DNA of 32,000 nt. Source: Candidatus Iainarchaeum sp. GTDB lineage: Archaea > Iainarchaeota > Iainarchaeia > Iainarchaeales > VGJJ01. The translations under genes and the position numbers were made by a program. Every line of letters starts with the position of its first letter. Within the stretch, counting starts at the first letter, position 1. A model generated the notes under the pieces. That model saw only the letters and a list, made by a program, of their open reading frames with translations, ran no database searches and was not told the DNA's origin. The DNA lies in contig JAUYHT010000006.1 in the NCBI GenBank assembly GCA_030688545.1, positions 300,001 through 332,000 on the forward strand. Reading direction: 5' to 3'. This document shows, piece by piece, positions 2,900-31,393 of this stretch.

Positions 2900-3268
2900 C
2901 TATTTCACCACCATCATCCGAGAGGAAGGAATATTGTTTTCAATCAATTGGGCGAGCGTGTAAATCGTTCCTTGCTTCCCCGTGATTTTATCTCTCGCCG
3001 CCTGCGAGAACCCCAGGGCGGCCACTTCCATCTTCTCAGAAACATCCCCTTTCCCCATGACTTTTCCGGGGACGACGAATACCTTGTCCTTGAATCGGAT
3101 GGCCATCCCATTGAGATGATCCACATTCACTTCCGCCCGGTTGCGGGTGGAAGTTTGGATGAGCGTGGCGAGCGTGCGGAACACATTCTGCTTGGTCTTT
3201 TTTCCCTGCTTGTCCAACTGCACCACGAGTTGTCGCGTCATTGGATTGGTTGGTCCGCTTCGTTTCAT
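2900..3268 (-). CDS. rpl18e: 50S ribosomal protein eL18 (L18e)
   Basis: MKRSGPTNPMTRQLVVQLDKQ...VVPGKVMGKGDV. The internal ATG at 3268 is preceded by CAGGTGA, a Shine-Dalgarno-like sequence. The longer track ORF (to 3544) runs through the tRNA gene and is rejected. Confidence 0.9.
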   Translation of the reverse strand: MKRSGPTNPMTRQLVVQLDKQGKKTKQNVFRTLATLIQTSTRNRAEVNVDHLNGMAIRFKDKVFVVPGKVMGKGDVSEKMEVAALGFSQAARDKITGKQGTIYTLAQLIENNIPSSRMMVVK

Positions 3269-3319
3269 TTTTTTCACCTGATAATATTCTTTTCTTTTTT
3301 TGGCCACCGGGAAATTAGA

Positions 3320-3398
3320 AAAAGGTTGGCGAAAACCTTTTAGCCGGGAGGTTTCCGAGAAACCTCCCCATGTCCAAACGCCCAAATGGAATTTGGGC
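3320..3398 (-). other. three consecutive perfect stem-loops in the tRNA-Leu / rpl18e spacer
   Basis: On the minus strand: GCCCAAAT-TCC-ATTTGGGC (3398-3380), GGGAGGTTTC-TCG-GAAACCTCCC (3368-3346) and AAAAGGTT-TTCGCC-AACCTTTT (3341-3320). The last runs into a T5 tract. Confidence 0.6.
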
Positions 3399-3399
3399 A

Positions 3400-3483
3400 T
3401 GCACGGGGGAGGATTCGAACCTCCGAAGGCACTAAGCCACCAGATCTTAAGTCTGGCCCCTTTGACCGCTCGGGAACCCGTGC
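3400..3483 (-). tRNA. tRNA-Leu (anticodon UAA), class II with a long variable arm
   Basis: The reverse complement folds as a cloverleaf: acceptor GCACGGG/CCCGTGC, D arm CCC-GAGCGGTCAAA-GGG, anticodon arm CCAGA-CTTAAGA-TCTGG, variable arm with GGC/GCC stem, T arm GGAGG-TTCGAAT-CCTCC, discriminator A. No CCA is encoded. Confidence 0.92.
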
Positions 3484-3485
3484 CA

Positions 3486-3592
3486 CAAACTTTTTGGGAA
3501 AAAGTTTGATCAAAAACCTTTCCTCTTGAAAAAAGTTTGATCAAAAAACCCTTTCCTTTTGGAAAAAGGCTTAATCAAACAAACTTTTCATT
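3486..3592. repeat. hairpin plus three ~31-33-bp tandem repeats (core AAAAAGTTTGATCAAAAA), locus 1
   Basis: 10-bp inverted repeat CAAACTTTTT-GGG-AAAAAGTTTG (3486-3508). Units are at 3497-3527, 3528-3560 and 3561-3592 (the last degenerate). The GATC of the first unit lies about 26 nt upstream of the tRNA-Leu 5' end. Confidence 0.85.
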
Positions 3593-21698: not shown

Positions 21699-22244
21699 AT
21701 GCCTACCCGAAATGCGTTCAAACGGTTCGTTCAAAAGATGAGACATAGACGAATCTTGGGTGAAATATTGGATGAAAATAGAGGAAGACGCCCGACCGAT
21801 ATCCCATCCGAAGAGTTGATGCGCATCGGAGGAGCTACATCAAGGAGCCGAAAAAGGCCAGCTGAAGTTGCCGTCGGCCGATCAATGGCTGACTTTAAAC
21901 AATGGATCGAAAAGATCGCAATCTATGAAACAGGAAAGGCAATCGCAATTGAAAAAGGGACGAAAATAGTTAGAAAAGGTGCACAAAAAAAATTGAACAA
22001 ATCCCGCCCACGCGGAAAGCGCTCGCCCTACAAACTGACGGGTTTGGGAAACTCAGATGCCCGCGCAACATTGAAATGGAACCAAGAAATTAGGAAACGA
22101 TTGGCAGACATGTCTATTTTCCGGAGTCCCGAAGCCGGCCGGTTTTTGGCGGAACGAGCGATGGCCGAGCAATGGGAACGCTTGCCGGACGCCCGAAAAA
22201 AAGAAATGCTCGCATGGATGAAAAAGAACGGGCGCGCTAAATAG
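21699..22244 (+). CDS. hypothetical highly basic protein (181 aa), no family recognised
   Basis: ATG preceded by GGGGAGGG. K/R-rich throughout, with no TM segment or signal peptide. Plus strand, and visibly more A/T-rich than the ribosomal genes. A T6 tract follows the stop. Confidence 0.6.
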   Translation: MPTRNAFKRFVQKMRHRRILGEILDENRGRRPTDIPSEELMRIGGATSRSRKRPAEVAVGRSMADFKQWIEKIAIYETGKAIAIEKGTKIVRKGAQKKLNKSRPRGKRSPYKLTGLGNSDARATLKWNQEIRKRLADMSIFRSPEAGRFLAERAMAEQWERLPDARKKEMLAWMKKNGRAK

Positions 22245-22315: not shown

Positions 22316-24517
22316 TTACTTCTTCCGCGGCGCCACCCATACTTCATCGGGCCATTCCTCTTCGGTGACGCGGGGGGCCCAGGCTTGTGCGGGAAAAAAC
22401 CGGGAGCGGATCCAGAACCAGGCTCCCGCAAGGATGAGGAGCACTAATATTCCCAACCAAAAACCCCTGGCGCCGCTCACGAATGCAGTGGCTTGCGCCA
22501 CGGAGTTGGTGCTGGGCTTCAGGATGAGGGTGTGCGGCGCGGATTGGGTGGCGAATCCCACGAATTGGATAGGGATATTCCGCGGTTGCATCAACCAGGC
22601 GTCGGGCGAAATGGTATAGGTCACCCGTTTGGTTTCCATGGGAGCCAATGCAATGGGGGTTTCCCCTTCTATTTTCCAACCAGTGGGAACCGTGATCAGG
22701 ATATTCCCTTCATGAGACTGATTGGTCGTATTTTGGATGAGCACATCCACCGTGTACGCGTTGCGCGTCACGGGTTCCTCCACCACTTCCGGGGTGATGC
22801 GCACCTTTTCCTCGAATACGATGTTATACATGTGCGTCACGATGTACCCCTCGCTCGCCACCTGCAGAATGAGTTGGCTCCCATTCTGCAAAAGGGACAC
22901 CGGAAGAAGGATAATAGGTTCATCAAATCCCCCCACGCGAACGATTTTTTCGAATGTCTGGCCGGTAGGTTTCACGGTTAGTGTGAGAGTGGCATCGTGG
23001 GAATAGAAGCTCGTGTTCATCAGAGGAATGGCGAATGTGGATGCGTTTCCGATGACAATTTCGGATGGGGGGTTATTCAATTGGATGGGAGCTTGCGTGA
23101 CGCTCGAGAAGAACAATGGGCGATCTTCCCCCTCCAAAGCGCATCCTTCGATGAGGGGTTGAAGATGAAGAGTATTCACTTGGGAATTGGTCTCGACGCG
23201 TACCGCGTGAATGACGTGGGAAAGGGGGGGTACAGCGATGACAGATGGGATGATGATTCCGTCTTCCAGGGTTAGCGCGACGCGAGCCGTTTGAGTGAGA
23301 GGGTTTATCAGTTCGATGGGGATGGTTTGCCCTTCCTTCACTAATCCCCCATCGAGAATGATCTTGAAGTCGGCGCATTGTTCCCCTTGTGTCCCATGGA
23401 AAGTGAATGGGATGCGCATGTTGGGAATGGCGCACGCCGTGGTATCGGTGAAATGTCCTTGGATGGTGATGAACGCACTCCCGTCGAATGACACATCATT
23501 CCTGAATCCGGTGGATTGCAGGGAGAATTCCCCAGTCTTAGTTGAGCGAATGGTTTGGGGAGTGGCCAACAGGGAATAGTCAAGTTGGTAATTGACATCC
23601 TGTATCTGGAAGTGGTCCACATGGAAGGTTTGATCGGAGTTGTTCTGCAAGAATAGGGAATGGGTATTGTTTTCTCCTGCGCGCACGTCGAAATGGGCGG
23701 GTAGCACACGCAGTTCGGTGCAGGCGAAGACATTGGTGAATGTGTTTTCCACTGTCACCTCGAATGCCCCGTCGATGTCCCCGAATGAACAGTCCTGGCC
23801 ATTTGAAAAAGCCCCTCGGGTTTCCAGGAATACATGATCCACGACATCCTCGCTTACCCGTTGCGTGCGGATTTCAATGCGCACGGGTTGGCGAGTATGC
23901 CGCGGGATGCTTTTTATAAAATCCGCATCATTGAATCCGGGGTTCAATCGCGTGCTGAACTCGGGAGAATCATCAAAGACATTGAATCCTTGCAGGGTGA
24001 AATCCTCAGAGGAATCGTTGCGCAGGAAAACCGTGTGGATGATTGTGACATCCTCGGCCACCGAAACATCCGTGGTCTCGAATGAAATGGCTTTGCATAC
24101 GTCCGCCGAATCCTGGATAGTGACATCGATGGTGAAAGTGAGGTCAGCCAATGAACAAGAAGGGGTATTGTCGAATGCCCCCCGCAGGGAAACGTTGAAT
24201 GAGGTGGTTTGGTCTCCATTCACATCTTGAGTAGTGTATCGTAGGACCAGGTTCCCACTCCCATTTTCCTGGATCTCGTCGGGAAACGAATCTACCGTGA
24301 TATCAATTCGCGAATCATCCTCTTCCACCCGGACATCATCCAAATCAAAGGAATCATTCCCCTCATTCTCAATCCGAAGGGTCAGCACACGATTAATCCT
24401 GCTTTCGGATAAAACAACCGAATCAGGAGTGACGGTGATGTCATTGCAGGTGGCGGCAAAGGCCGGGGTGGCCAGCAAGAACAAACAAACTCCCAATATG
24501 CCTAGGAAACGGCGCAT
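22316..24517 (-). CDS. large surface protein: signal peptide, four Cys-bracketed beta modules, Cys-free beta modules including a CARDB/NEW3-like one, C-terminal TM anchor
   Basis: Signal peptide MRRFLGILGVCLFLLATPAFA/AT. Cys pairs are at track-ORF residues 31/128, 148/250, 273/369 and 388/466. There is a recurring RGAF(D/S)N..C(S)(L/F)(A/G)D module end. About 11 N-x-S/T sequons. NAYTVDVLIQNTTNQSHEGNILITVPTGWKI resembles NEW3/CARDB. TM segment is GFWLGILVLLILAGAWFWI. The track start at 24538 is GTG. The first ATG at 24517 lies about 27 nt downstream of a TATA-like ATATTTAAAGG. Confidence 0.8.
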   Translation of the reverse strand: MRRFLGILGVCLFLLATPAFAATCNDITVTPDSVVLSESRINRVLTLRIENEGNDSFDLDDVRVEEDDSRIDITVDSFPDEIQENGSGNLVLRYTTQDVNGDQTTSFNVSLRGAFDNTPSCSLADLTFTIDVTIQDSADVCKAISFETTDVSVAEDVTIIHTVFLRNDSSEDFTLQGFNVFDDSPEFSTRLNPGFNDADFIKSIPRHTRQPVRIEIRTQRVSEDVVDHVFLETRGAFSNGQDCSFGDIDGAFEVTVENTFTNVFACTELRVLPAHFDVRAGENNTHSLFLQNNSDQTFHVDHFQIQDVNYQLDYSLLATPQTIRSTKTGEFSLQSTGFRNDVSFDGSAFITIQGHFTDTTACAIPNMRIPFTFHGTQGEQCADFKIILDGGLVKEGQTIPIELINPLTQTARVALTLEDGIIIPSVIAVPPLSHVIHAVRVETNSQVNTLHLQPLIEGCALEGEDRPLFFSSVTQAPIQLNNPPSEIVIGNASTFAIPLMNTSFYSHDATLTLTVKPTGQTFEKIVRVGGFDEPIILLPVSLLQNGSQLILQVASEGYIVTHMYNIVFEEKVRITPEVVEEPVTRNAYTVDVLIQNTTNQSHEGNILITVPTGWKIEGETPIALAPMETKRVTYTISPDAWLMQPRNIPIQFVGFATQSAPHTLILKPSTNSVAQATAFVSGARGFWLGILVLLILAGAWFWIRSRFFPAQAWAPRVTEEEWPDEVWVAPRKK

Positions 24518-24537
24518 ATACCCAATGAGAAGCCCCA

Positions 24538-24548
24538 CCTTTAAATAT
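24538..24548 (-). promoter_or_regulatory. TATA-like box (ATATTTAAAGG on the minus strand) upstream of the surface-protein gene
   Basis: Centred about 27 nt upstream of ATG 24517, which fits a leaderless or near-leaderless transcript. Confidence 0.35.
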
Positions 24549-24575
24549 CATTACTTTAACCCGTGAATCAGTTAC

Positions 24576-24683
24576 TCGAACTTTTTAGGAAAAAGTTCGA
24601 TCAAAAAACGACTATTTTAAAGAAAAAATCAATCCAAAAACGACTATTTCTAAGAAAAAAAGGTCAATCAAAAACGACCAGCT
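24576..24683. repeat. hairpin plus three 32-bp tandem repeats (core AAAAAGTTCGATCAAAAA), locus 2
   Basis: 11-bp inverted repeat TCGAACTTTTT-AGG-AAAAAGTTCGA (24576-24600). Units are at 24588-24619, 24620-24651 and 24652-24683. The last unit overlaps the TAG stop of the Pro-rich gene. The architecture is the same as at 3486-3592. Confidence 0.85.
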
Positions 24684-26586
24684 ATGGGCCGTGCTCTTCC
24701 TCAATCATTTTCTTCAATCGACGTAATATTTCTTTTTTGGGGTCGTCGACTGGTTCCTCCGGCACGGCTTGGGCCACTTGTTTTTCCTGTCGAGTGAGGG
24801 TTTGATTCAGGGCATCTATTGAAGCCTGCTCCTTCTCCTCCTGCTCGTGTTCCTTCTCTTTCTGTTCAAGATATGCCCAGTCCGCGGGGGTGAGATTTTC
24901 CTGATCCTCTTCGTCCGCTTGGGAAGGGATTTGGGTTTCCTTTGGTTGAAGAGGAGAGAGTGGAGATTTGGTTTCGGGAGGCGCGGAAGAAATGGGTCGT
25001 GGTTCGTCATCCATTCCTTTGGGGGCCAGGGGAGGTATCGCCACTTCTCCGGATTCCTTATTCGGGCGCGCGGGAGGAGGGGTAATTTCGGGGGTGTTTA
25101 ACCTTTCTCGGGGGACCGACCAGGGAGGAACATAGGGGCGGGGGCCACGCGGGGCTGATTCGAGAGGAGTATGAGACGGATCTCGAAGCCCCTTGGGTTG
25201 AATTGGGAATTTTTCTTGGGAGCTATCCATTTCGGATTTGTATGGCAATGGAGCTGTTTCCGGGACAGGAGGATTGGGGGCTATCGTGGGCGCCTCTTCT
25301 TGGCGTTGGGCATCGATGTGTTGCAAATAGGATGTTGGTTTTGCTTGACCTGTTTCCATGTTGGGTGTCACTGTTTGAGGGACTGGCGAATTCCCTTCGT
25401 TTCGCGTGGATGGGGTGTTTTCCACCCTCCTCCCCGATGGGGGAAACGTTTCCTGCGTCGGAAGGTGTGCCTCTTTCAAAGGGGGTGGGGCCATGGGGTC
25501 CGTCCTTTTTTCAGGGGAAACCGATATTTTTTCTTCACGGGGACGCGGTATTTCGACTTGGAGGGAGGGGATGTCAGCGTACTTTTTTCCCTCTTCTTGC
25601 ATTTCATAGGGAGTGGGATTCCCCTGCGGGGCGATGATGGGTTCCGCCGATCCGAATCCTTCCCACTTGGACGTATTATTGGTCGTCGTCCCCCGCGCAT
25701 CCTTTTTCCAAGGTGGAGCAAAAGATGGGGGTGCGGCGTCTTTCCCAGGAAGTGAACGAATATCCTTGGATGGGGTAACCACCTGGTTGGTTGATGGTGG
25801 TTTCAAATGTGGAGACGCCGGGGCTGAGGGTGGGGGAAAGGGTGATGTAAAAGAAGGAGGGGTCGTGGGGGTGGGGGTGGGAATCCCAACCCTCGTCGGT
25901 TGCAACACGATATCTTTTTCGGTGCTCGGAGGCATCGGTGCACGTTCGGGGATGATCGGCACAGAGGATGAGGGAGTAGAAGAAAGGGGGAAATCCTTTT
26001 TTTGTCCAGGAAGGATGGCTCGGGTTGGGCTGACGGTTCCTCGTGGGGCCATTTCCTGTTTGGGTCGCATGAAGGGGAGCATTTGGGCGAATGTGAATGG
26101 TTTTTTGGGTGGCGTGTTTAATGGCTTTGGATTCGATGCGATGGCGCGTTGGAGGGGGGTGGGCGGCTGTGCAGGTATAGTCGGCAATGGAGAAGCAGGG
26201 AGGAGAGATGGTCCCTGCGTCCGAATGGGAGAATAGAGTGGCGCATTTCCCGGTGATAAATTTTTTTGGGTCGATGAGAGACGGGGGGAAATGGACATGT
26301 TCTTGTTGGCGAATGGGCGCGCAGGAGTTATCGTTCCATGGGCACTCCCCTGCATCATGGTGGCTAACTGCTGGCGCATTTGACCTTGGGCGTTGGAGCT
26401 GGCGCGCGTGGGTTGGGAGGTAATCAAGGGTTGTCGTCTGGGTTTTGGTTTTCCGAATATCGCTTGGGCAACGCGCTGTCCCAATCCGGGTTGCGGTAAT
26501 TTGGGAACGAGTTCTCCGTGGGAAATCTTTTCCCGACGTTGCTTGAGGAATTCGTCGATCTCATCCACATCCTCTGAAACGGGCAT
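24682..26586 (-). CDS. proline-rich, low-complexity (probably intrinsically disordered) protein, 634 aa, no signal peptide or TM
   Basis: A 1.9-kb open frame with an ATG start about 25 nt downstream of TTTTTTATAG. The ends are acidic and helical-looking (N: EDVDEIDEFLKQRREK; C: EQKEKEHEQEEKEQASIDALNQTLTRQEK...LRRLKKMIEEEHGP). They flank about 550 aa of P/T/S/Q-rich sequence. Confidence 0.75.
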   Translation of the reverse strand: MPVSEDVDEIDEFLKQRREKISHGELVPKLPQPGLGQRVAQAIFGKPKPRRQPLITSQPTRASSNAQGQMRQQLATMMQGSAHGTITPARPFANKNMSISPRLSSTQKNLSPGNAPLYSPIRTQGPSLLPASPLPTIPAQPPTPLQRAIASNPKPLNTPPKKPFTFAQMLPFMRPKQEMAPRGTVSPTRAILPGQKKDFPLSSTPSSSVPIIPERAPMPPSTEKDIVLQPTRVGIPTPTPTTPPSFTSPFPPPSAPASPHLKPPSTNQVVTPSKDIRSLPGKDAAPPSFAPPWKKDARGTTTNNTSKWEGFGSAEPIIAPQGNPTPYEMQEEGKKYADIPSLQVEIPRPREEKISVSPEKRTDPMAPPPLKEAHLPTQETFPPSGRRVENTPSTRNEGNSPVPQTVTPNMETGQAKPTSYLQHIDAQRQEEAPTIAPNPPVPETAPLPYKSEMDSSQEKFPIQPKGLRDPSHTPLESAPRGPRPYVPPWSVPRERLNTPEITPPPARPNKESGEVAIPPLAPKGMDDEPRPISSAPPETKSPLSPLQPKETQIPSQADEEDQENLTPADWAYLEQKEKEHEQEEKEQASIDALNQTLTRQEKQVAQAVPEEPVDDPKKEILRRLKKMIEEEHGP

Positions 26587-26606
26587 AGCTACCCAGACTT
26601 TTCCGA

Positions 26607-26616
26607 CTATAAAAAA
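26607..26616 (-). promoter_or_regulatory. TATA box (TTTTTTATAG on the minus strand) for the Pro-rich gene, probably a leaderless mRNA
   Basis: Centred about 25 nt upstream of ATG 26586, with no Shine-Dalgarno-like sequence in between. Confidence 0.4.
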
Positions 26617-26794
26617 GAACGCTCATGCGCCAACCAAAAATCCCCAGCGGGATCCCCACGACTCCCAATGCAATCTCGGTAGGATCGGGTTCAGCCGCAT
26701 TCATGAACGGAGGAGCTGTCGATCAAAAGAATTTCTCTTGCGGGAAAAATCAGTCTATTAAAAAAGGGCACCGCCTATTGGAGTAAGTGGTCTC

Positions 26795-27292
26795 ATGCGC
26801 CAAAAATTCATCGACTGGTTTTTTTATGATCCCTTGTTCAAAAAGTTGAACGTGCGGACCGTATTAGATGTGGGATCGGAAAATGGTAAGATGATTAAAT
26901 ATTTCTCCAGACGGGGAGCTAAAGTCACGGCGATCGACCTGGAGCCCACGCGACCCGAAATCAAAAAGATGGACTTTTTGAATAATGTTTTCGCGGACGG
27001 ACAGTTTGATTTGGTGTACAGTGCGCACACCATTGAACACATTCCCACCCCGGAAAAATTTTCTTTGGAAATGCTGCGTGTATCAAAACAATACGTGTGT
27101 CTTGTAGCTCCCTTACCGGGCAAGCAATTCTGGGATCAGCCCGATCATATTCGACCGTACACAAAAGAAACATTAAAACGCATTTTTCACTTGAATAAGT
27201 GGATCATCTGCAAAGAAATACGTTTTCCCGGGTTTGAGCCCATCGCTCTCGTGTTGTTTGACAAGAAGGATTCACGCCTCGTTCGAAATTGA
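26795..27292 (+). CDS. small class I SAM-dependent methyltransferase (Methyltransf_11/23-like)
   Basis: Motif I VLDVGSENGKM, acidic post-I AIDLEP, then FDLVYSAHTIEHIPTPEKF. 165 aa, more A/T-rich than its neighbours. Confidence 0.75.
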   Translation: MRQKFIDWFFYDPLFKKLNVRTVLDVGSENGKMIKYFSRRGAKVTAIDLEPTRPEIKKMDFLNNVFADGQFDLVYSAHTIEHIPTPEKFSLEMLRVSKQYVCLVAPLPGKQFWDQPDHIRPYTKETLKRIFHLNKWIICKEIRFPGFEPIALVLFDKKDSRLVRN

Positions 27293-27690
27293 AGCGAATC
27301 ATTGCTTCATAATCTTTCGCAAGGATCTGAAAGTATACCCATTTTCCACGCTTCCTGAAACGACACGCTTCTTAGGAATCGCGGATACGTATGGTGCGAT
27401 ATACCCGCGGAACACCGCCTCCAATTTTGCATTTATGGGATTTCGGCGTTTTTCCCTTCATGGTTCGACATTCGCGTTCCACAATTTTGATAGCTGGTTC
27501 AACGCGGGTTTTTGTGCACACAGGAAGCTCTGGTGCTATTGATACTGTTTGAATGTCGCCGCATACTGAGCCAGCATGCGATTAGGTTTTATAGGAGCGA
27601 GTTCATGCGGGTAGAAAAGAAGGAACAATTTCCTGTCCCCAAAAAGTCCTCTCCCAACCTCTTTCTTTTCTCCGAATGCGGGTGCGCGCA

Positions 27691-27775
27691 TTTTTGATCG
27701 AACTTCCGGGTAAAACCAAAAAGGTTTTGCGGGCCTCGCAGAACAACGTTCTGCAAGGTTTTTCAAAAAGTTCGT
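27691..27775. repeat. rearranged partial copy of the GATCAAAAA element with two internal hairpins, locus 3
   Basis: TTTTTGATCGAACTT (27691-27705, inverted orientation) ... CAAAAAGTTCG (27764-27774). In between are AAAACC-AAAAA-GGTTTT (27712-27728) and GCAGAAC-AAC-GTTCTGC (27738-27754). It lies immediately downstream of the stop at 27777. Confidence 0.6.
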
Positions 27776-27776
27776 T

Positions 27777-28712
27777 TTACTTGCGGCGCTGCGAATAGGC
27801 CAACAGCAATCCCGCGAGGACAAGGACGATTCCCAGTCCAATCACAGGATTGGTAATGAAACCCAAGAGTCCGGTGGCGGGCGAACCAGCATTCGGGACC
27901 TCGTTCGCGATGGGTAAAATACTCCCGCGCGGAATGCCCGCTTCGCCCAATGCGATTTCTGTGGGATTGGGTTCCACCGTGTTCACGAACGTGGGGGCTG
28001 ATGTCAAGGGGGTATTCGTTCCATCTCCTGACGCGGGTGGGGACAAAGAAAGATTGTTCCCTTGCCATAAAGGATTGAATGAGAACAGGGGCACAGGGCC
28101 GCTTGATCCATCGTCATCATCATCCGTGGACGATTGCGTGCTGGGGCCTTCACAATTATCCCCTTCGCAGATCGTGGGATTAGTGTTCTGCCCATTCGTC
28201 GGAGTGCATCCGATGGTGCCGACGGCGCAGGGCGCTGGCTGGCAATTAATGGTTCCCTCTACTGGACAGGGGTCCTTGGGAGGGCAATTGGAATCGCCGT
28301 TTAACTCACAAGGATTAGGTTGATTGCAATCCGGTTCATTCACCGGACATGGATCCGTTACTTCTTTATCGCGTATCCGGCGGCCGCTAGAGCCAGGTCC
28401 GCTGGGTCCTTGAGGCGCGGGGGCCGCATCGATGCTCTGGGCCGATGTATTTCCTGTAGAAGGTGAAGATGATTCGGTGTTACTGGCAGGTGGCGCGGGT
28501 GCGGAATTGTTTCCCCCATCATTGCTTGAGGTTGTGCGCGTTGATTCATTTGTTGGCGTGGTGGGTGCCGGAGCCGATTCCGTGGCACCGGTGCCTGAAG
28601 ATCCCGAATCATTTGTCGTCGCCGGAGCGTCGGGCGCGCTGTCGGCGAATCCAAAGGGTGACAGCATCAGGCTCATCACGATGAGGACCATTCCCAGTTT
28701 CATTCCGTTCAT
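27777..28712 (-). CDS. secreted S/T/P-rich protein with a 10-Cys module, poly-Asp tract and C-terminal hydrophobic anchor plus basic tail
   Basis: Signal peptide MNGMKLGMVLIVMSLMLSPFGFA/DS. The Cys module is C-x6-C-x5-C-x7-C-x5-C-x7-C-x4-C-x6-C-x12-C-x4-C (nt 28152-28349). There is a DDDDDG tract. C-terminus is GSPATGLLGFITNPVIGLGIVLVLAGLLLAYSQRRK. The first ATG at 28712 is preceded by GGAAGGAG. The track start at 28718 is TTG. Confidence 0.75.
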   Translation of the reverse strand: MNGMKLGMVLIVMSLMLSPFGFADSAPDAPATTNDSGSSGTGATESAPAPTTPTNESTRTTSSNDGGNNSAPAPPASNTESSSPSTGNTSAQSIDAAPAPQGPSGPGSSGRRIRDKEVTDPCPVNEPDCNQPNPCELNGDSNCPPKDPCPVEGTINCQPAPCAVGTIGCTPTNGQNTNPTICEGDNCEGPSTQSSTDDDDDGSSGPVPLFSFNPLWQGNNLSLSPPASGDGTNTPLTSAPTFVNTVEPNPTEIALGEAGIPRGSILPIANEVPNAGSPATGLLGFITNPVIGLGIVLVLAGLLLAYSQRRK

Positions 28713-28818
28713 TCTCAATCAGCTCCTTCCAATTAGATGATGGTGATTTCAATCTTTTAATGTATACGTTTTAAATGAAATTGCGTTAACGACCTCAATT
28801 CATACGGCGATTGTAGAA

Positions 28819-29754
28819 TTAAAACCTTCCTCCGAACCCTCCGCCCCCCGTGCTTCCTCCCCCAAATCCCCCAAATCCCCCACCGCCTCGTCCGAAGCCG
28901 CTCCCGATATACCCCCCTCCGATGCCCCTTCCCCTCCCAAGCGAAGGAGAGTTACCGGAATGAGATAAGTCCGTGGGGAGGGGTTGAAAGAGCGCCACGT
29001 ACAGGAAATAGAGGCTCGTGAGTAATGCCCCATGAAACACATTGAGAGTGAGGGCAGTGAATATTCCCCCGATGCTGAAGAAAAGGAGCCCGGTGAAAAA
29101 ATAGAGGATGACATTGGCAGCCCGCATTTTTTTCTTTTGGGGATCTCCTGCACTATTTTTCCAAATTTTGAATAGGATTATTGCAAAAAGACCCAGTGCG
29201 ATTACCGTCGACCATCTTTCGGTTTCAGGAAAGGCGACGGAAAAAGAATCCGCTTGCGCAATGACATCCGGATCCCCCCGCACGTACCCTTCCATCGTTA
29301 TCACCCCTGCTTCCAACCCACCCGCAAAATCCCCTTCTTGGAAGAATGGGACCATTTTTCCTTCGGCGATCTGCCGGAGACGCGCATCCGGGAGCATCCC
29401 TTCCAATCCATATCCTGTTTCGATGAAGTAGGACCGTTCCTGCAGGGCGATGACGATCAGCAAACCTGTGTCCTTCTGGGCCTCCCCAATTTTCCATGCC
29501 TCAAACACGCGCGTAGTGAATTCGAAAATATCCCCTCCTTCCAAAGTGGGAATGGTGAGCACCACCATCTCCACCCCAGTCTCCTCATCCAATGTTTTCA
29601 GCCGGGTTTCAAGTAACCCTTGTTGATCTGGAGGAATGATGTTGGCGGTGTCCGTGATGTATCCTTGCGGCAACGGCACGGCCTGGGCCGCGACGGTGGC
29701 TCCCAGAACGAGGAGAAAAATCAATACCCCTATTTTCATTTTCCACATGATCAT
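28819..29754 (-). CDS. TPM-domain (YgcG/DUF477-like) membrane protein with Gly-rich C-terminal tail
   Basis: Signal peptide, then GYITDTANIIPPDQQGLLETRLKTLDEETGVEMVVLTIPTLEG...TGLLIVIALQERSYFIETGYGLEG..PDA, then TM helices, then GRGRGIGGGYIGSGFGRGGGGFGGFGGG. Confidence 0.85.
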   Translation of the reverse strand: MIMWKMKIGVLIFLLVLGATVAAQAVPLPQGYITDTANIIPPDQQGLLETRLKTLDEETGVEMVVLTIPTLEGGDIFEFTTRVFEAWKIGEAQKDTGLLIVIALQERSYFIETGYGLEGMLPDARLRQIAEGKMVPFFQEGDFAGGLEAGVITMEGYVRGDPDVIAQADSFSVAFPETERWSTVIALGLFAIILFKIWKNSAGDPQKKKMRAANVILYFFTGLLFFSIGGIFTALTLNVFHGALLTSLYFLYVALFQPLPTDLSHSGNSPSLGRGRGIGGGYIGSGFGRGGGGFGGFGGGSTGGGGFGGRF

Positions 29755-29763
29755 GATATCTCA

Positions 29764-30345
29764 TCACGTGAAATCAGTAGGAACAATGGGCGCGTTCTCA
29801 GCCCCGGCCACGGATTCGAAGAAGGGCTTGGCCTCTCTATCTCCCACGAAAAATGAGTTGGGGATGAGACGGATGTAGGTGTTGTATTCCCGCACCGCAT
29901 CATTATACCGCTTACGGGACACACTGATGCGGTTCTCCGTTCCTTCGAGTTGCGCCATCAAATCGCGAAAGGCTTGGGTGGCCGTCAGCTCGGGATAGTT
30001 TTCAAATGTCAATATGATTTTCGACAGGGTGCTTTCCAGTTGGTTGGCGGTTTGAACTTGTGAGTCCACAGTGCCCCCTTGCTGCCATTGGGTGCGAAGT
30101 TGGGTTATCTCCGTCAGCGTTTCCTGCTCGAATCCCGCGACTCCTTTCACGGTGTTCACCAAATTAGGGATAAGGTCCACCCGGCGCTGGTAATCCGCCT
30201 GCACATTGGCCCACTCCCCATCGACCGCTAAATCGCGTTGCGTGGCCCCATTGTATATCCCCATGACCCATAGCCCGAGGAAGAGAACCAATACCACGGC
30301 AATGCCCACTGGGGCGACCCAATTGGGTAATCCTTTTTCGGCCAT
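29764..30345 (-). CDS. lemA: LemA family protein
   Basis: N-terminal TM, then YNGATQRDLAVDGEWANVQADYQRRVDLIPNLVNTVKG...FRDLMAQLEGTENRISVSRKRYNDAVREYN. It ends 9 nt upstream of the TPM gene. Confidence 0.88.
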   Translation of the reverse strand: MAEKGLPNWVAPVGIAVVLVLFLGLWVMGIYNGATQRDLAVDGEWANVQADYQRRVDLIPNLVNTVKGVAGFEQETLTEITQLRTQWQQGGTVDSQVQTANQLESTLSKIILTFENYPELTATQAFRDLMAQLEGTENRISVSRKRYNDAVREYNTYIRLIPNSFFVGDREAKPFFESVAGAENAPIVPTDFT

Positions 30346-30411
30346 GCTTTTCCCTCCAGAATGTAATCCTGAAACCCCAATGAGAATAAAAGAGGAAGAG
30401 AAAAGGAGATT

Positions 30412-30442
30412 AAAAAAGGAAAAAGGGGGGATAGCCCCCCCC
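30412..30442 (-). terminator. intrinsic-terminator-like G/C hairpin followed by T tracts
   Basis: Minus strand reads GGGGGG(GG)-CTAT-CCCCCC followed by TTTTTCCTTTTTT. It starts 8 nt after the stop of the 113-aa gene. Confidence 0.55.
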
Positions 30443-30449
30443 GGTCTAC

Positions 30450-30791
30450 CTAGTGATTGCTGGCCAGGTTCCAGACGGCTTTAATCCCCACGATCACGGC
30501 AGCGGGTGCCATGAGGGCGGCGATGTAGGCGAATATGCTTCCCAGCGGGGGTCCCACGATGGGGATCAGGGTCCAATTGACGGCTCCCGCCACCAACAGG
30601 GCGATGACCGCTACCAGGAAGGATGTAATCTCTTTATCGCTGATGTTCAGCAGTCCGATGATGGCACCCAAGATCACGAAGATCAATGGTAACCAGTTCG
30701 CGGCCTCGCCGAAGCTTTGCCCCAGGATTCCAGCGATGATGGCGAGAACCACCCCGATGATGAATGCCCAGGATCCAATCTTCTGCTCCAT
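30450..30791 (-). CDS. small polytopic membrane protein (113 aa, about 4 TM)
   Basis: ATG preceded by GAGGAGGTG. Hydrophobic throughout. No family recognised. Confidence 0.6.
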   Translation of the reverse strand: MEQKIGSWAFIIGVVLAIIAGILGQSFGEAANWLPLIFVILGAIIGLLNISDKEITSFLVAVIALLVAGAVNWTLIPIVGPPLGSIFAYIAALMAPAAVIVGIKAVWNLASNH

Positions 30792-31043
30792 TGATGAAAC
30801 ACCTCCTCAGTGTTTCCCTGCAGACCATAAGCCCGCGGGGGTTCATCTACTCCACTTCCTGAATTATGTCCTTTTAATAAACATTCTTTTTTGGAGCCGT
30901 ATTTGCGGCAAAGAGCGAAAATAAAGCGGGTAATCTGAATTCTTGGAAAAAAGAAAGAGGGAGCACGGTTTCTATTCTAATTGGACTTGGATGTTCGCCA
31001 ATACCTGGCGCAATAATACCCATAACCCTCTCATGGTTGGAGG

Positions 31044-31076
31044 AAAAAAAAATCCTATTATTTTTAAGGAAAAAAA
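31044..31076 (-). terminator. oligo-T termination signals after rps10
   Basis: T7 and T9 tracts on the minus strand (A runs at 31070-31076 and 31044-31052) lie within 40 nt of the rps10 stop. Confidence 0.5.
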
Positions 31077-31081
31077 GCCCT

Positions 31082-31393
31082 TTATTTATCGCGCAATTCA
31101 ATCTCGATATGCACGTTTTCGGGGATGTCCACGCGCATGACCCGGCGTAGCGTGCGCTCGTCCGCCTGAATATCGATCAGGCGCTTGTGTACGCGCATCT
31201 GCCATTTCTCGAATGTCTCCGTTCCCCCACCGCATGGGGATTTGCGCGTGGGCAAAATCAATTTTTTGGTGGGCAGGGGCACTAATCCCGAATGCTTGAC
31301 CCCCGTCCGATCCGCGACGTCCAATATCTTCCCTGAAATGTCTTGGAGGGAATCCAGGCTGGGGCTCGTCAATTTGATACGGGCATTCTGCAT
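31082..31393 (-). CDS. rps10: 30S ribosomal protein uS10
   Basis: ARIKLTSPSLDSLQDI...GLVPLPTKKLILPTRKSPCGGGTETFEKWQMRVHKRLIDI, immediately downstream of aEF-1alpha as in most archaea. Confidence 0.95.
   Translation of the reverse strand: MQNARIKLTSPSLDSLQDISGKILDVADRTGVKHSGLVPLPTKKLILPTRKSPCGGGTETFEKWQMRVHKRLIDIQADERTLRRVMRVDIPENVHIEIELRDK

What the first reader, a model, noticed from the sequence alone, without database searches (positions are those of the whole stretch)
27777..28718. Secreted protein combining a glycan-linker-like region, a compact 10-Cys module, a poly-Asp tract and a sorting-signal-like C-terminus
**Seen directly.** The protein has a signal peptide. About 90 aa of S/T/P/N-rich sequence with several N-x-S/T sequons follow. 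Next are ten cysteines in 66 residues with regular 4-7-residue spacing (PCPVNEPDCNQPNPCELNGDSNCPPKDPCPVEGTINCQPAPCAVGTIGCTPTNGQNTNPTICEGDNCEG). After that come DDDDDG and a tripartite C-terminus. That C-terminus has a short motif (SPATGLLGF), a hydrophobic helix and a basic end (SQRRK).

**Established knowledge.** Archaeosortase and exosortase substrates (PGF-CTERM, PEF-CTERM and others) have exactly this tripartite layout, preceded by a Thr/Ser-rich linker.

**Inference.** This may be a divergent sorting signal, and the Cys module a knottin- or EGF-like binding unit. No archaeosortase gene is present in the window.
Basis: partly seen in the sequence, partly recalled or inferred. Interest (0 to 1): 0.6.

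Follow-up and report, generated by a model that had tools for sequence, protein, structure and literature searches.

The report
Membrane-anchored surface stalk protein, DPANN archaeon
This is a real, fast-evolving cell-surface protein of a small uncultured (DPANN) archaeon, most likely held in the membrane by its C-terminal helix and encoded in a conserved envelope gene cluster; it matches no known sortase or archaeosortase signal, and its cysteines form a variable string of small two-cysteine loops rather than a knottin or EGF domain.

Summary
The ORF (minus strand, best start ATG at 28703, 308 aa) is a real gene. It is annotated as hypothetical in a 'Candidatus Diapherotrites' MAG. I recovered 11 further orthologues (one only a 53-aa C-terminal fragment), two by exhaustive HMMER and the rest by conserved gene order.

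The gene always lies between ribosomal genes S10 and L3. It is followed by a Pro-rich cytoplasmic protein and a roughly 660-760-aa surface protein made of beta-sandwich domains.

The orthologues change the interpretation in three ways:
- **Cys module.** It is an array of one to five two-Cys loops, mostly (D/E)PC-x5-7-C. The Cys count is even in all 11 full-length members, from 2 to 10. This is not a fixed knottin or EGF fold.
- **C-terminus.** The P and T of 'SPATG' are not conserved. The conserved core is G-[LF]-x(4-6)-N-x-P-x-[IL]-G, then the helix, then a basic end.
- **Known sorting signals.** No PGF-CTERM, PEF-CTERM or other CTERM model matches, and the target is below threshold for LPXTG.

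No sortase-like gene lies in about 200 kb of accessible related sequence, but the full genome could not be searched.

A plain TM-anchored stalk protein is the best reading (about 0.6). A new sorting signal remains possible (about 0.2).

The parts
27777..28703 (-). Coding sequence of the target protein (308 aa plus stop). The ORF listing extends it to a TTG at 28718.
   Evidence: Identical protein in two other assemblies. Twelve orthologues keep the same architecture.
28644..28703 (-). Sec-type signal peptide MKLGMVLIVMSLMLSPFGFA, with predicted cleavage after Ala20.
   Evidence: Hydropathy. The Ala at the cleavage position is invariant, and most orthologues read A|QE here. AlphaFold predicts a helix at residues 3-14. 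The cleavage site itself is inferred.
28359..28643 (-). Low-complexity S/T/P/A/N-rich spacer (residues 21-115) with four N-x-S/T sequons.
   Evidence: Composition. It cannot be aligned between orthologues and is acidic (E/D-rich) in others. pLDDT is below 50.
28146..28355 (-). Array of five short two-Cys loops: PC-x6-C, PC-x7-C, PC-x7-C, PC-x6-C and C-x4-C, joined by 4-12-residue Pro-rich spacers.
   Evidence: Spacings. P of about 2e-13 for this Cys density. Orthologues carry 1-5 such loops and always an even Cys count. Disulfide pairing of neighbouring Cys is inferred.
28110..28124 (-). Poly-Asp patch (DDDDD) in a Ser/Gly-rich spacer.
   Evidence: Read directly. A comparable acidic patch precedes the FNPLW motif in about half of the orthologues (L017, L014, L019, L007). 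It is absent in L008.
28065..28091 (-). Conserved short motif PLFSFNPLW.
   Evidence: W213 is invariant and the F-N-P-L-W block is shared by most orthologues.
27927..27971 (-). PNPTEIALGEAGIPR, a diverged copy of the family motif GPDPxI[IV]xLADGR.
   Evidence: Alignment A7. P247 and A253 are nearly invariant.
27831..27884 (-). Juxtamembrane element SPATGLLGFITNPVIGLG. The family core is G-[LF]-x(4-6)-N-x-P-x-[IL]-G.
   Evidence: G278 and G289 are invariant and P286 nearly so, whereas P275 and T277 vary. A related ITGF-x5-FWLG element sits in the neighbouring large protein.
27795..27869 (-). C-terminal transmembrane helix (about L279-Y303).
   Evidence: Hydropathy up to 2.3. AlphaFold predicts a helix at 286-307, with pLDDT 67-89 over residues 281-308.
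27780..27794 (-). Short basic cytoplasmic end SQRRK.
   Evidence: Read directly. All orthologues end 4-7 residues after the helix with 2-4 Arg/Lys.
22316..24538 (-). Conserved cluster partner: a 733-740-aa secreted protein made of about six beta-sandwich domains, followed by a TM helix and a cytoplasmic tail.
   Evidence: 35-42% identical orthologues occupy the same position in 11 loci. AlphaFold model is all-beta, pLDDT 60. Foldseek returns multi-Ig-domain proteins, including the Haloferax S-layer protein 7ptp at rank 28.
24682..26586 (-). Conserved cluster partner: a 634-aa Pro-rich protein with no signal peptide or TM helix and with conserved N- and C-terminal peptides.
30450..30791 (-). 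Conserved cluster member: a 113-aa protein with four TM helices.
   Evidence: 66-79% identity across loci, close to ribosomal protein S10 at 74-85%. No family above threshold.
28819..30345 (-). LemA gene (29764-30345) and TPM-domain gene (28819-29754), directly upstream of the target.
   Evidence: Pfam LemA 3.7e-47 and TPM 7.1e-38. The pair (or its TPM gene) is present upstream of the target in the window, L008, L013, L014, L015 and L021 and absent in the other loci.

Best explanation
The gene encodes a lineage-specific cell-envelope protein of a DPANN ('Diapherotrites') archaeon.

**Proposed mechanism.**
1. It is exported through Sec and loses its signal peptide.
2. It stays in the cytoplasmic membrane as a type-I protein, held by its C-terminal helix with the short basic end inside the cell.
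3. The conserved part lies close to the membrane. It comprises the motifs FNPLW and GPDPxIxxLADGR, a Pro/Thr/Ala-rich linker, and the juxtamembrane element G-[LF]...N-x-P-x-[IL]-G. This part probably docks the protein to conserved partners encoded beside it. The main candidate is the large multi-beta-sandwich surface protein, whose helix begins with a related element.
4. The outer part varies between genomes. It is a string of one to five small loops, each closed by a disulfide between neighbouring cysteines, followed by a disordered acidic or Ser/Thr-rich and possibly glycosylated region. Together they form an extended stalk or brush facing the environment.

**What is shown.** The sequence features, orthology, conserved gene order, which residues are conserved, the absence of matches to known sorting-signal models, and the variable loop number.

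**What is inferred.** Signal-peptide cleavage, disulfide pairing, glycosylation, retention of the helix, and interaction with the neighbours.
For: **The features are real.**

**The family is small and lineage-specific.** Only two relatives turned up among 1.84 billion representative proteins. There is no Pfam, NCBIfam or PDB match.

**The gene order is conserved.** The order S10 / 4-TM protein / (LemA-TPM) / target / Pro-rich protein / large beta-sandwich protein / L3 holds in about 12 contigs.

**Conservation is concentrated near the membrane.** The invariant residues are A20, C159, W213, G278 and G289. The N-terminal half cannot be aligned.

**The Cys region is a repeat array.** Cys counts are 2, 4, 4, 6, 6, 6, 6, 8, 8, 10 and 10. 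Short within-loop spacings alternate with variable between-loop spacings. L015 reads 7,10,7,8,7,8,7,11,7.

**The two C-termini are related.**
- An HMM built from the target-family tails finds the large neighbour's TM region as its best non-family hit (E 4e-4 to 5e-3).
- An HMM built from the neighbour's TM region finds target-family tails as its only non-self hits (E 2e-6 to 1e-3 among 3,089 ORFs).

**The neighbour keeps its helix.** Its conserved cytoplasmic tail ends in an acidic-W-x-x-P motif, so its helix is presumably retained.

**No known sorting signal matches.**
- No CTERM sorting model is matched.
- LPXTG_anchor scores 10 bits for the target against a cut-off of 15.9.

**No sorting enzyme was seen nearby.**
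- No sortase TLxTC signature lies in any real gene in the window or the related loci.
- Five ORFs from related loci (three multi-TM membrane proteins, two others) were checked against Pfam; none matched a sortase, exosortase, rhomboid or CPBP model.

**There is a precedent.** Sulfolobus SlaB is a Sec substrate that stays anchored by a C-terminal TM helix (PMC6098224).
Against: - The juxtamembrane residues are more conserved than a passive anchor needs.
- The protein always ends 4-7 residues after the helix, and a Pro/Thr/Ala-rich linker precedes the motif. This is also the layout of processed sorting signals.
- The Haloferax S-layer glycoprotein was long read as TM-anchored before archaeosortase processing was found (PMC6098224).
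- The rest of the genome (a 446-kb contig and more) could not be searched for a sorting enzyme or for other proteins with this tail.
- No structure could be predicted with confidence (pLDDT 44), so the 'stalk' and the partner interaction are inferences.
Confidence: 0.6

Rival explanations
1. The C-terminus is a new, family-specific sorting signal. An unidentified membrane enzyme (sortase-like, archaeosortase-like or another type) would cleave at or near the invariant Gly and transfer the protein to a lipid or an envelope polymer. The helix and basic end would be discarded.
For: - The layout is tripartite and always sits at the extreme C-terminus.
- G278, P286 and G289 are invariant or nearly so in proteins only 19-38% identical overall.
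- The motif-to-end distance of 30 residues equals that of staphylococcal protein A's LPXTG signal (recalled from memory, not checked here).
- Isolated tails of three orthologues score 17-20 bits on TIGR01167 LPXTG_anchor, above its 15.9 cut-off.
- A related element occurs in a second, non-homologous surface protein next door.
- Sortase E genes are known in some archaea (PMC11915815).
- The Haloferax S-layer glycoprotein is a precedent for a 'TM anchor' that turned out to be processed (PMC6098224).
Against: - No CTERM model matches.
- The TIGR01167 matches cover only the helix and basic tail (profile positions 5-33), not the LPXTG motif. They fall below the cut-off in the full proteins, and the target scores 10 bits.
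- The P and T of SPATG vary. The residue before the invariant G is T, S, M, A or L.
- In a pattern scan of 241 million JGI metagenome records, the tail was found only in one further orthologue.
- The related element in the large neighbour precedes a conserved cytoplasmic tail, which would be thrown away by cleavage.
- No candidate enzyme lies in the conserved neighbourhood of about 12 genomes.
Confidence: 0.2
2. It is a substrate of a known archaeosortase, with a divergent PGF-CTERM or PEF-CTERM signal.
For: The tripartite C-terminus, and 'LGF' in the target and in L008 at roughly the position of PGF.
Against: - No archaeosortase-associated CTERM model (PGF-CTERM, PEF-CTERM) appears at E<=10. 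PFE-CTERM reaches only 7-14 bits against a cut-off of 24.
- 'LGF' is not conserved; the other orthologues read FTG, FSS or ITG.
- The window has no archaeosortase.
- A full-text search found only seven papers that mention both 'archaeosortase' and 'DPANN'; the two that were read (PMC6098224, PMC12462473) do not report one.
Confidence: 0.05
3. The ten-Cys segment is a compact knottin- or EGF-like binding domain with interlocked disulfides, and it is the functional core of a secreted adhesin.
For: High Cys density with regular spacing. pLDDT rises slightly, to 51-65, over residues 121-150.
Against: - Orthologues have as few as 2 or 4 Cys.
- The unit is clearly a repeated two-Cys loop whose copy number changes.
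- No EGF, knottin or other Cys-rich Pfam family matches any of the 11 members, and there is no PDB relative.
- The region is among the least conserved in the alignment.
Confidence: 0.05
4. The helix-breaking residues at the outer end of the helix (G, N-x-P, G) mark the protein, and its large neighbour, as substrates for intramembrane proteolysis, for example by a rhomboid. The ectodomain would then be shed.
For: The protein has type-I topology, and Gly, Asn and Pro are conserved in the outer half of the helix. That such residues are typical of rhomboid substrates is general knowledge, not tested here.
Against: No rhomboid gene was seen in the accessible loci. There is no direct evidence for shedding. 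The same residues can serve helix-helix packing.
Confidence: 0.05

Closest known systems
Sulfolobus SlaB (small, membrane-anchored S-layer subunit)
   Same: Both are Sec substrates with a cleaved signal peptide, a C-terminal TM anchor and an extended Ser/Thr-rich stalk. Both are encoded close to a much larger surface protein (PMC6098224; gene order).
   Different: There is no sequence similarity. SlaB has beta-sandwich domains and a coiled coil, while this protein is predicted to be largely unstructured with two-Cys loops. Here the large partner has its own TM helix, unlike SlaA.
Haloferax volcanii S-layer glycoprotein with PGF-CTERM, processed by archaeosortase ArtA
   Same: Both have a linker followed by a tripartite C-terminus of motif, helix and basic residues. 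The neighbouring large protein is a chain of Ig-like domains like that glycoprotein (Foldseek hit 7ptp_A, rank 28).
   Different: There is no PGF motif and no PGF-CTERM model match. No archaeosortase was found in any accessible sequence. Processing is untested.
LPXTG / (S/P)PXTG cell-wall sorting signals of sortase substrates
   Same: SPATG lies 30 residues from the C-terminus, followed by a helix and RRK. The weak best hits in NCBIfam are to sortase-type anchors: LAVTG at E 0.005, and TIGR01167 at 17-20 bits for three orthologue tails.
   Different: The P and T are not conserved among orthologues (TPISG, NSITG, ASIMG, NPIAG, SPFLG). The HMM matches exclude the motif itself. No sortase signature lies in any real gene in the accessible loci. 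No peptidoglycan or pseudomurein acceptor is known for this lineage.
Knottins and EGF-like domains
   Same: Small, Cys-dense and extracellular.
   Different: Those folds need a fixed framework of at least six Cys with interlocked bonds. This family has 2-10 Cys in repeated (D/E)PC-x5-7-C units and matches no model.

Membership tests
PGF-CTERM / archaeosortase A substrates | Match to the PGF-CTERM sorting-domain model (NCBIfam/TIGRFAM) above its cut-off | tested here: not met
   No PGF-CTERM hit even at E<=10 for the target, its isolated tail, or the tails of four orthologues.
PGF-CTERM / archaeosortase A substrates | Invariant Pro-Gly-Phe at the start of the helix | tested here: not met
   The target reads LLGF. 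Orthologues read GLFTG, GFFTG, GLFSS or GLITG. The residue before the invariant G is T, S, M, A or L, never P.
PGF-CTERM / archaeosortase A substrates | An archaeosortase gene in the same genome | not testable with these tools
   None in the 32-kb window. Five ORFs in related loci (three multi-TM) were checked and are DUF2339-like, EamA or unassigned. The 446-kb source contig and the rest of the MAG could not be fetched.
C-terminal sorting signals in general (Haft criteria) | The same tail on several unrelated proteins of one genome | tested here: inconclusive
   Within the window, only the target has a motif + helix + basic end at its extreme C-terminus. The adjacent large protein shares a related juxtamembrane element but carries a further 30-45-aa tail. 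A metagenome pattern scan found only one more orthologue.
LPXTG-type sortase substrates | TIGR01167 LPXTG_anchor at or above 15.9 bits, including the motif | tested here: not met
   The target scores 10.0 bits, E 1.1. Three orthologue tails score 17-20 bits only when isolated, and the match covers profile positions 5-33 or 9-33, which is the helix and tail. The full proteins score 13 bits.
LPXTG-type sortase substrates | Conserved [LS]PxTG-like pentapeptide | tested here: not met
   SPATG occurs in 4 of 12 orthologues. The others read TSTG, ASLTG, TPISG, NSITG, ASIMG, NPIAG or SPFLG.
LPXTG-type sortase substrates | A sortase gene (TLxTC active site) in the genome | not testable with these tools
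   The window has no TLxTC in any frame, and the first set of related loci has none in ORFs of at least 100 codons. One later hit (L013 3424-5061) has no Pfam family at all.
Knottin / EGF-like Cys-rich domains | Conserved framework of at least six Cys | tested here: not met
   Mature Cys counts among 11 orthologues are 2, 4, 4, 6, 6, 6, 6, 8, 8, 10 and 10, with a repeated two-Cys unit.
Knottin / EGF-like Cys-rich domains | Profile match to a known Cys-rich domain family | tested here: not met
   No Cys-rich domain family matched any of the 11 members in Pfam; only three unrelated families matched, each in a single member. A family profile found no PDB chain at E<=1.
SlaB-like S-layer anchor subunits | Signal peptide plus C-terminal TM anchor, encoded next to a large surface subunit | tested here: met
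   and the gene order. This is an analogy of layout only.
SlaB-like S-layer anchor subunits | Beta-sandwich domains and a coiled-coil stalk, with sequence homology to SlaB | tested here: not met
   AlphaFold predicts no strands or coiled coil, pLDDT 44. No Pfam or PDB relatives.

The most novel reading that the evidence does not exclude
The conserved element G-[LF]-x(4-6)-N-x-P-x-[IL]-G plus helix plus basic end, shared in related form by two adjacent and otherwise unrelated surface proteins, may be a previously undescribed C-terminal sorting or anchoring signal of a DPANN lineage. An unknown enzyme would read it. The five-gene block between S10 and L3 would then encode the main envelope (S-layer-like) complex of these archaea, with a trans-membrane link to a Pro-rich cytoplasmic protein.
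Probability: 0.15. Interest if true: 0.65.

Novelty: new member of a known kind. Interest (0 to 1): 0.3.

Why it matters
Almost nothing is known about the cell envelope of Diapherotrites-type DPANN archaea. This work identifies a conserved block of surface-protein genes lying next to the ribosomal protein operons (a position I take as a hint of high expression). The block comprises a small 4-TM protein, this stalk protein, a Pro-rich cytoplasmic protein and a large multi-Ig-like surface protein. That gives a concrete candidate for the envelope or S-layer locus of the lineage. If the shared juxtamembrane element proved to be a processing signal, it would add a new member to the set of prokaryotic C-terminal sorting systems. 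As it stands, the protein is an ordinary kind of thing, a TM-anchored surface protein, in a new and very narrow family.

Tried and rejected
- **Known family models.** Pfam and NCBIfam scans of the target, its tail and its orthologues found no family and no CTERM model.
- **Homologue searches.** A word-indexed search with the target found only the protein itself. The same search with a three-sequence alignment of the C-terminal domain returned nothing, not even the query.
- **Collection scans with the FNPLW / ADGR patterns.** GTDB genome contigs and JGI metagenomes gave no confirmed relatives. The source MAG is therefore not among the GTDB representatives held here.
- **Metagenome scan with all 11 tails.** With six closer tails it found one more orthologue and no unrelated protein.
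- **Reaching the rest of the genome.** The 446-kb source contig is not indexed for look-up.
- **Structure prediction.** With three sequences the model was unusable, pLDDT 44. I ran no fold search on the target because the model is unreliable.
- **Tandem repeats.** A DNA-level search over the Cys region found none. The loops are too diverged at the DNA level.
- **Promoter and terminator scan.** Uninformative for an archaeon.
- **Literature.** Full-text searches on sortase in DPANN lineages found no paper reporting one. The archaeosortase search found seven papers that mention both terms, and the two that were read do not report one.
- **Readings rejected.** A spurious ORF is excluded by the conserved orthologues. 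Glycosylation is not demonstrated, because the sequon count is not above expectation and is not conserved.
Full report
**1. The observation**

The ORF lies on the minus strand at 27777..28718. The ORF listing starts it at a TTG (313 aa). NCBI's annotation of the identical protein starts at the ATG at 28703 (308 aa). That protein is MDP2666769.1 / MDZ4256534.1, 'MAG: hypothetical protein Q8P05_04720 [Candidatus Diapherotrites archaeon]'. The orthologues all begin 2-5 residues before the hydrophobic core, which supports the ATG.

- an N-terminal hydrophobic signal sequence ending GFA|DS
- about 95 residues rich in S, T, P, A and N, with four N-x-S/T sequons
- ten Cys within 66 residues (spacings 6,5,7,5,7,4,6,12,4) and none elsewhere
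- DDDDD
- SPATG, a roughly 25-residue hydrophobic stretch, and SQRRK at the very end

Cys is 0.41% of the other 36 genes in the window, so ten in 66 residues has P of about 2e-13. The sequon count is not above what the composition predicts. It is also not conserved, ranging from 0 to 6 in orthologues.

**2. The organism and the setting**

The window is archaeal. It holds archaeal-type L3, SecY, EF-1alpha, S10 and a long ribosomal protein operon, plus one tRNA-Leu. The target sits in a block of non-ribosomal genes between S10 (31082-31393) and L3 (20448-21611). All but two of these genes (the methyltransferase and a 181-aa ORF at 21699-22244) are on the minus strand:

| Coordinates | Product |
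|---|---|
| 30450-30791 | 113-aa protein with four TM helices |
| 29764-30345 | LemA |
| 28819-29754 | TPM-domain protein |
| 27777-28703 | the target |
| 26795-27292 (plus strand) | methyltransferase |
| 24682-26586 | 634-aa Pro-rich protein without signal peptide or TM helix |
| 22316-24538 | 740-aa secreted protein with a TM helix near its C-terminus |

**3. Relatives**

- The word-indexed search found only the protein itself.
- An exhaustive HMMER search of 1.84 billion representatives with residues 116-313 found two relatives: P0002 (E 7.5e-16) and P0003 (E 2.6e-4).
- Both lie in the same gene order, between EF-1alpha/S10 and L3, and are followed by orthologues of the Pro-rich protein. 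P0003's locus also shows the large protein.
- Searching with the better-conserved neighbours brought in more loci. The large protein gave L009 and L011. The Pro-rich protein gave nine GTDB contigs, L012-L020.
- In each locus where that part of the contig is present, an ORF of the target's architecture lies just upstream of the Pro-rich gene. One further orthologue came from a JGI metagenome.

Across these genomes L3 is 65-68% identical and S10 is 74-85%. The 4-TM protein is 66-79%, the large protein 35-42% and the target 19-38%. The target is therefore a real but fast-evolving gene of one narrow lineage. No Pfam, NCBIfam or PDB family covers it.

**4. What the orthologues say about the parts**

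The alignment shows conservation concentrated in the membrane-proximal third:
- PLFSFNPLW, with W213 invariant
- GPDPxI[IV]xLADGR, diverged in the target to NPTEIALGEAG
- a Pro/Thr/Ala-rich linker
- the start of the helix, with G278 and G289 invariant and P286 nearly so

The N-terminal low-complexity region cannot be aligned. It is acidic rather than Ser/Thr-rich in several members.

The Cys region varies in an orderly way, as these examples show:

| Member | Cys loops |
|---|---|
| L008 | one PC-x6-C loop |
| L014 | four, three of them DPCLxNDSxFC |
| L015 | five DPC-x7-C loops |
| L017 | four longer KC-x10-13-C units |
| target | PC-x6-C, PC-x7-C, PC-x7-C, PC-x6-C and C-x4-C |

All 11 full-length members have an even number of Cys. 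Short within-loop spacings alternate with variable between-loop spacings. The simplest reading is a string of small loops, each closed by a bond between neighbouring cysteines, with a copy number that expands and contracts. That is incompatible with a fixed knottin or EGF framework.

The poly-Asp patch has acidic counterparts in about half of the members and is missing in others.

**5. The C-terminus**

No PGF-CTERM, PEF-CTERM or other CTERM model matches the target, its isolated tail or orthologue tails, even at E<=10. The weak best hits are to sortase-type anchors:
- LAVTG at E 0.005 and 16.9 bits, against a cut-off of 27
- TIGR01167 at 10 bits for the target
- TIGR01167 at 17-20 bits for three isolated orthologue tails, against a cut-off of 15.9

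These alignments cover the helix and basic end, not the LPXTG positions. They fall to 13 bits in the whole proteins.

The pentapeptide is SPATG in only four of twelve orthologues. The others read TSTG, ASLTG, TPISG, NSITG, ASIMG, NPIAG and SPFLG. The P and T that a sortase-type motif requires are therefore not conserved. The conserved core is G-[LF]-x(4-6)-N-x-P-x-[IL]-G, running into the helix.

**6. A related element next door**

An HMM of the target-family tails, searched against all ORFs of the window and the related loci, finds the TM region of the large neighbouring protein as its best non-family hit. The E-values are 3.8e-4 and 4.6e-3 in the first set, and 5e-4 and 6.5e-4 in the second.

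The reverse HMM, built from the neighbour's juxtamembrane region, finds target-family tails as its only non-self hits among 3,089 ORFs. These are E 2e-6, 3e-4 and 1e-3. The window's own, more diverged tail does not reach E<1.

The shared pattern is [IL]-T-G-[FL]-x5-6-[PF]-W-L-G followed by the helix. In the large protein, however, the helix is followed by 30-45 cytoplasmic residues that end in a conserved acidic-W-x-x-P motif. Such a tail would not be conserved if the protein were cleaved at the element. This favours a role in helix packing or recognition by a common partner rather than cleavage.

**7. Search for a sorting enzyme**

The window has no TLxTC sortase signature in any frame, and no ORF of at least 100 codons in the first set of related loci has one. 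One chance match in L013 has no Pfam family. Pfam assigns none of the flanking ORFs checked, three of them multi-TM proteins, to sortase, exosortase, rhomboid or CPBP families.

The rest of the source genome could not be reached. Presence of an enzyme elsewhere in the genome therefore remains untested.

Literature searches found no report of sortases in DPANN lineages. For archaeosortases, seven papers mention both terms, and the two that were read report none. Sortase E is known in pseudomurein-containing methanogens (PMC11915815).

**8. Structure**

AlphaFold with the three-sequence alignment gave pLDDT 44. Only the signal peptide and the C-terminal helix are confident.

The large neighbour is predicted as a chain of about six beta-sandwich domains, pLDDT 60. 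Foldseek returns generic multi-Ig-domain proteins. The Haloferax pentameric S-layer protein 7ptp_A is at rank 28 with low TM-scores. This is consistent with a surface or S-layer-like protein but is not diagnostic.

**9. Interpretation**

The best-supported reading is a type-I, C-terminally TM-anchored envelope protein. Its conserved membrane-proximal motifs dock it to partners encoded in the same block, and its variable outer part is a disulfide-stapled, possibly glycosylated stalk. Sulfolobus SlaB is the nearest functional analogue (PMC6098224).

A new sorting signal cannot be excluded. The history of the Haloferax S-layer glycoprotein is a caution here (PMC6098224). I give the plain anchor about 0.6. 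An unknown processing system gets about 0.2, a known archaeosortase signal about 0.05, a knottin/EGF-like core about 0.05, and intramembrane shedding about 0.05.

**10. Novelty and score**

The family is new to the databases but belongs to an ordinary kind. Interest is modest (0.3). Most of it lies in the conserved envelope gene block and the shared juxtamembrane element, not in the features first flagged.

Noticed in passing
window 22316-31393 (minus strand); L007, L009, L011-L020: A conserved gene block lies between ribosomal genes S10 and L3 in about 12 related archaeal MAG contigs. Its order is: small 4-TM protein, (LemA + TPM), the target, a Pro-rich cytoplasmic protein, and a large multi-beta-sandwich surface protein. 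It may be the envelope or S-layer locus of this lineage.
   Followed up: partly
window 24682-26586 (-): The 634-aa Pro-rich protein has no signal peptide or TM helix. Only its ends are conserved across genomes: N-terminal EEVDEINEFLKxRREK...AIFGKP and C-terminal EILRRLKKMMxEEH. The middle is variable in length (488-677 aa in total) and appears disordered. The function is unknown. The C-terminal amphipathic peptide looks like a docking motif.
   Followed up: partly
window 22316-22440 (-), the C-terminal ~40 residues of the 740-aa protein: The cytoplasmic tail of the large surface protein ends in a conserved acidic-W-[MLV]-x-P motif in all orthologues (EEEWPDEVWVAPRKK, EEPWMHPEK, EEAWMNPPK, DAVWLPSR, DEVWMPPR). 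This suggests a link across the membrane to a cytoplasmic partner, possibly the Pro-rich protein.
   Followed up: no
window 30450-30791 (-): This 113-aa four-TM protein is 66-79% identical across the related genomes, close to ribosomal protein S10, and lies a few hundred bases downstream of the S10 gene in every locus that includes both. It has no Cys or Arg and a single C-terminal His, and no family is above threshold (FtsK_4TM at 15.9 bits against a cut-off of 23.1).
   Followed up: partly
window 26795-27292 (+): A class-I SAM methyltransferase gene on the opposite strand sits between the target and the Pro-rich gene in this genome only. tblastn found no counterpart in any of the 13 related loci.
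   Followed up: partly
L020 (JAGVNS010000049.1): The record is titled 'Thaumarchaeota archaeon isolate DeMMO3_24', yet it carries the same gene block, with L3 67% identical to the window's. The MAG label looks wrong, or the contig is mis-binned.
   Followed up: no
L014 and L015 Cys-loop regions: In two orthologues most Cys loops contain an N-D-S or x-D-S triplet (CLANDSAFC, CLVNDSVNC). That places a potential N-glycosylation sequon or a metal-binding Asp/Ser pair inside the loop. The target's loops lack it.
   Followed up: no
window 3400-3483 (-): A tRNA-Leu (anticodon TAA) lies inside the ribosomal-protein gene region. A mechanical 214-aa ORF (2900-3544) runs across it, so the true protein gene must start downstream of the tRNA.
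   Followed up: no
tool behaviour: the search for homologous proteins with a three-sequence alignment of the C-terminal domain returned no hit at E<=10, not even the three input proteins. The negative result of that call therefore carries little weight.
   Followed up: no
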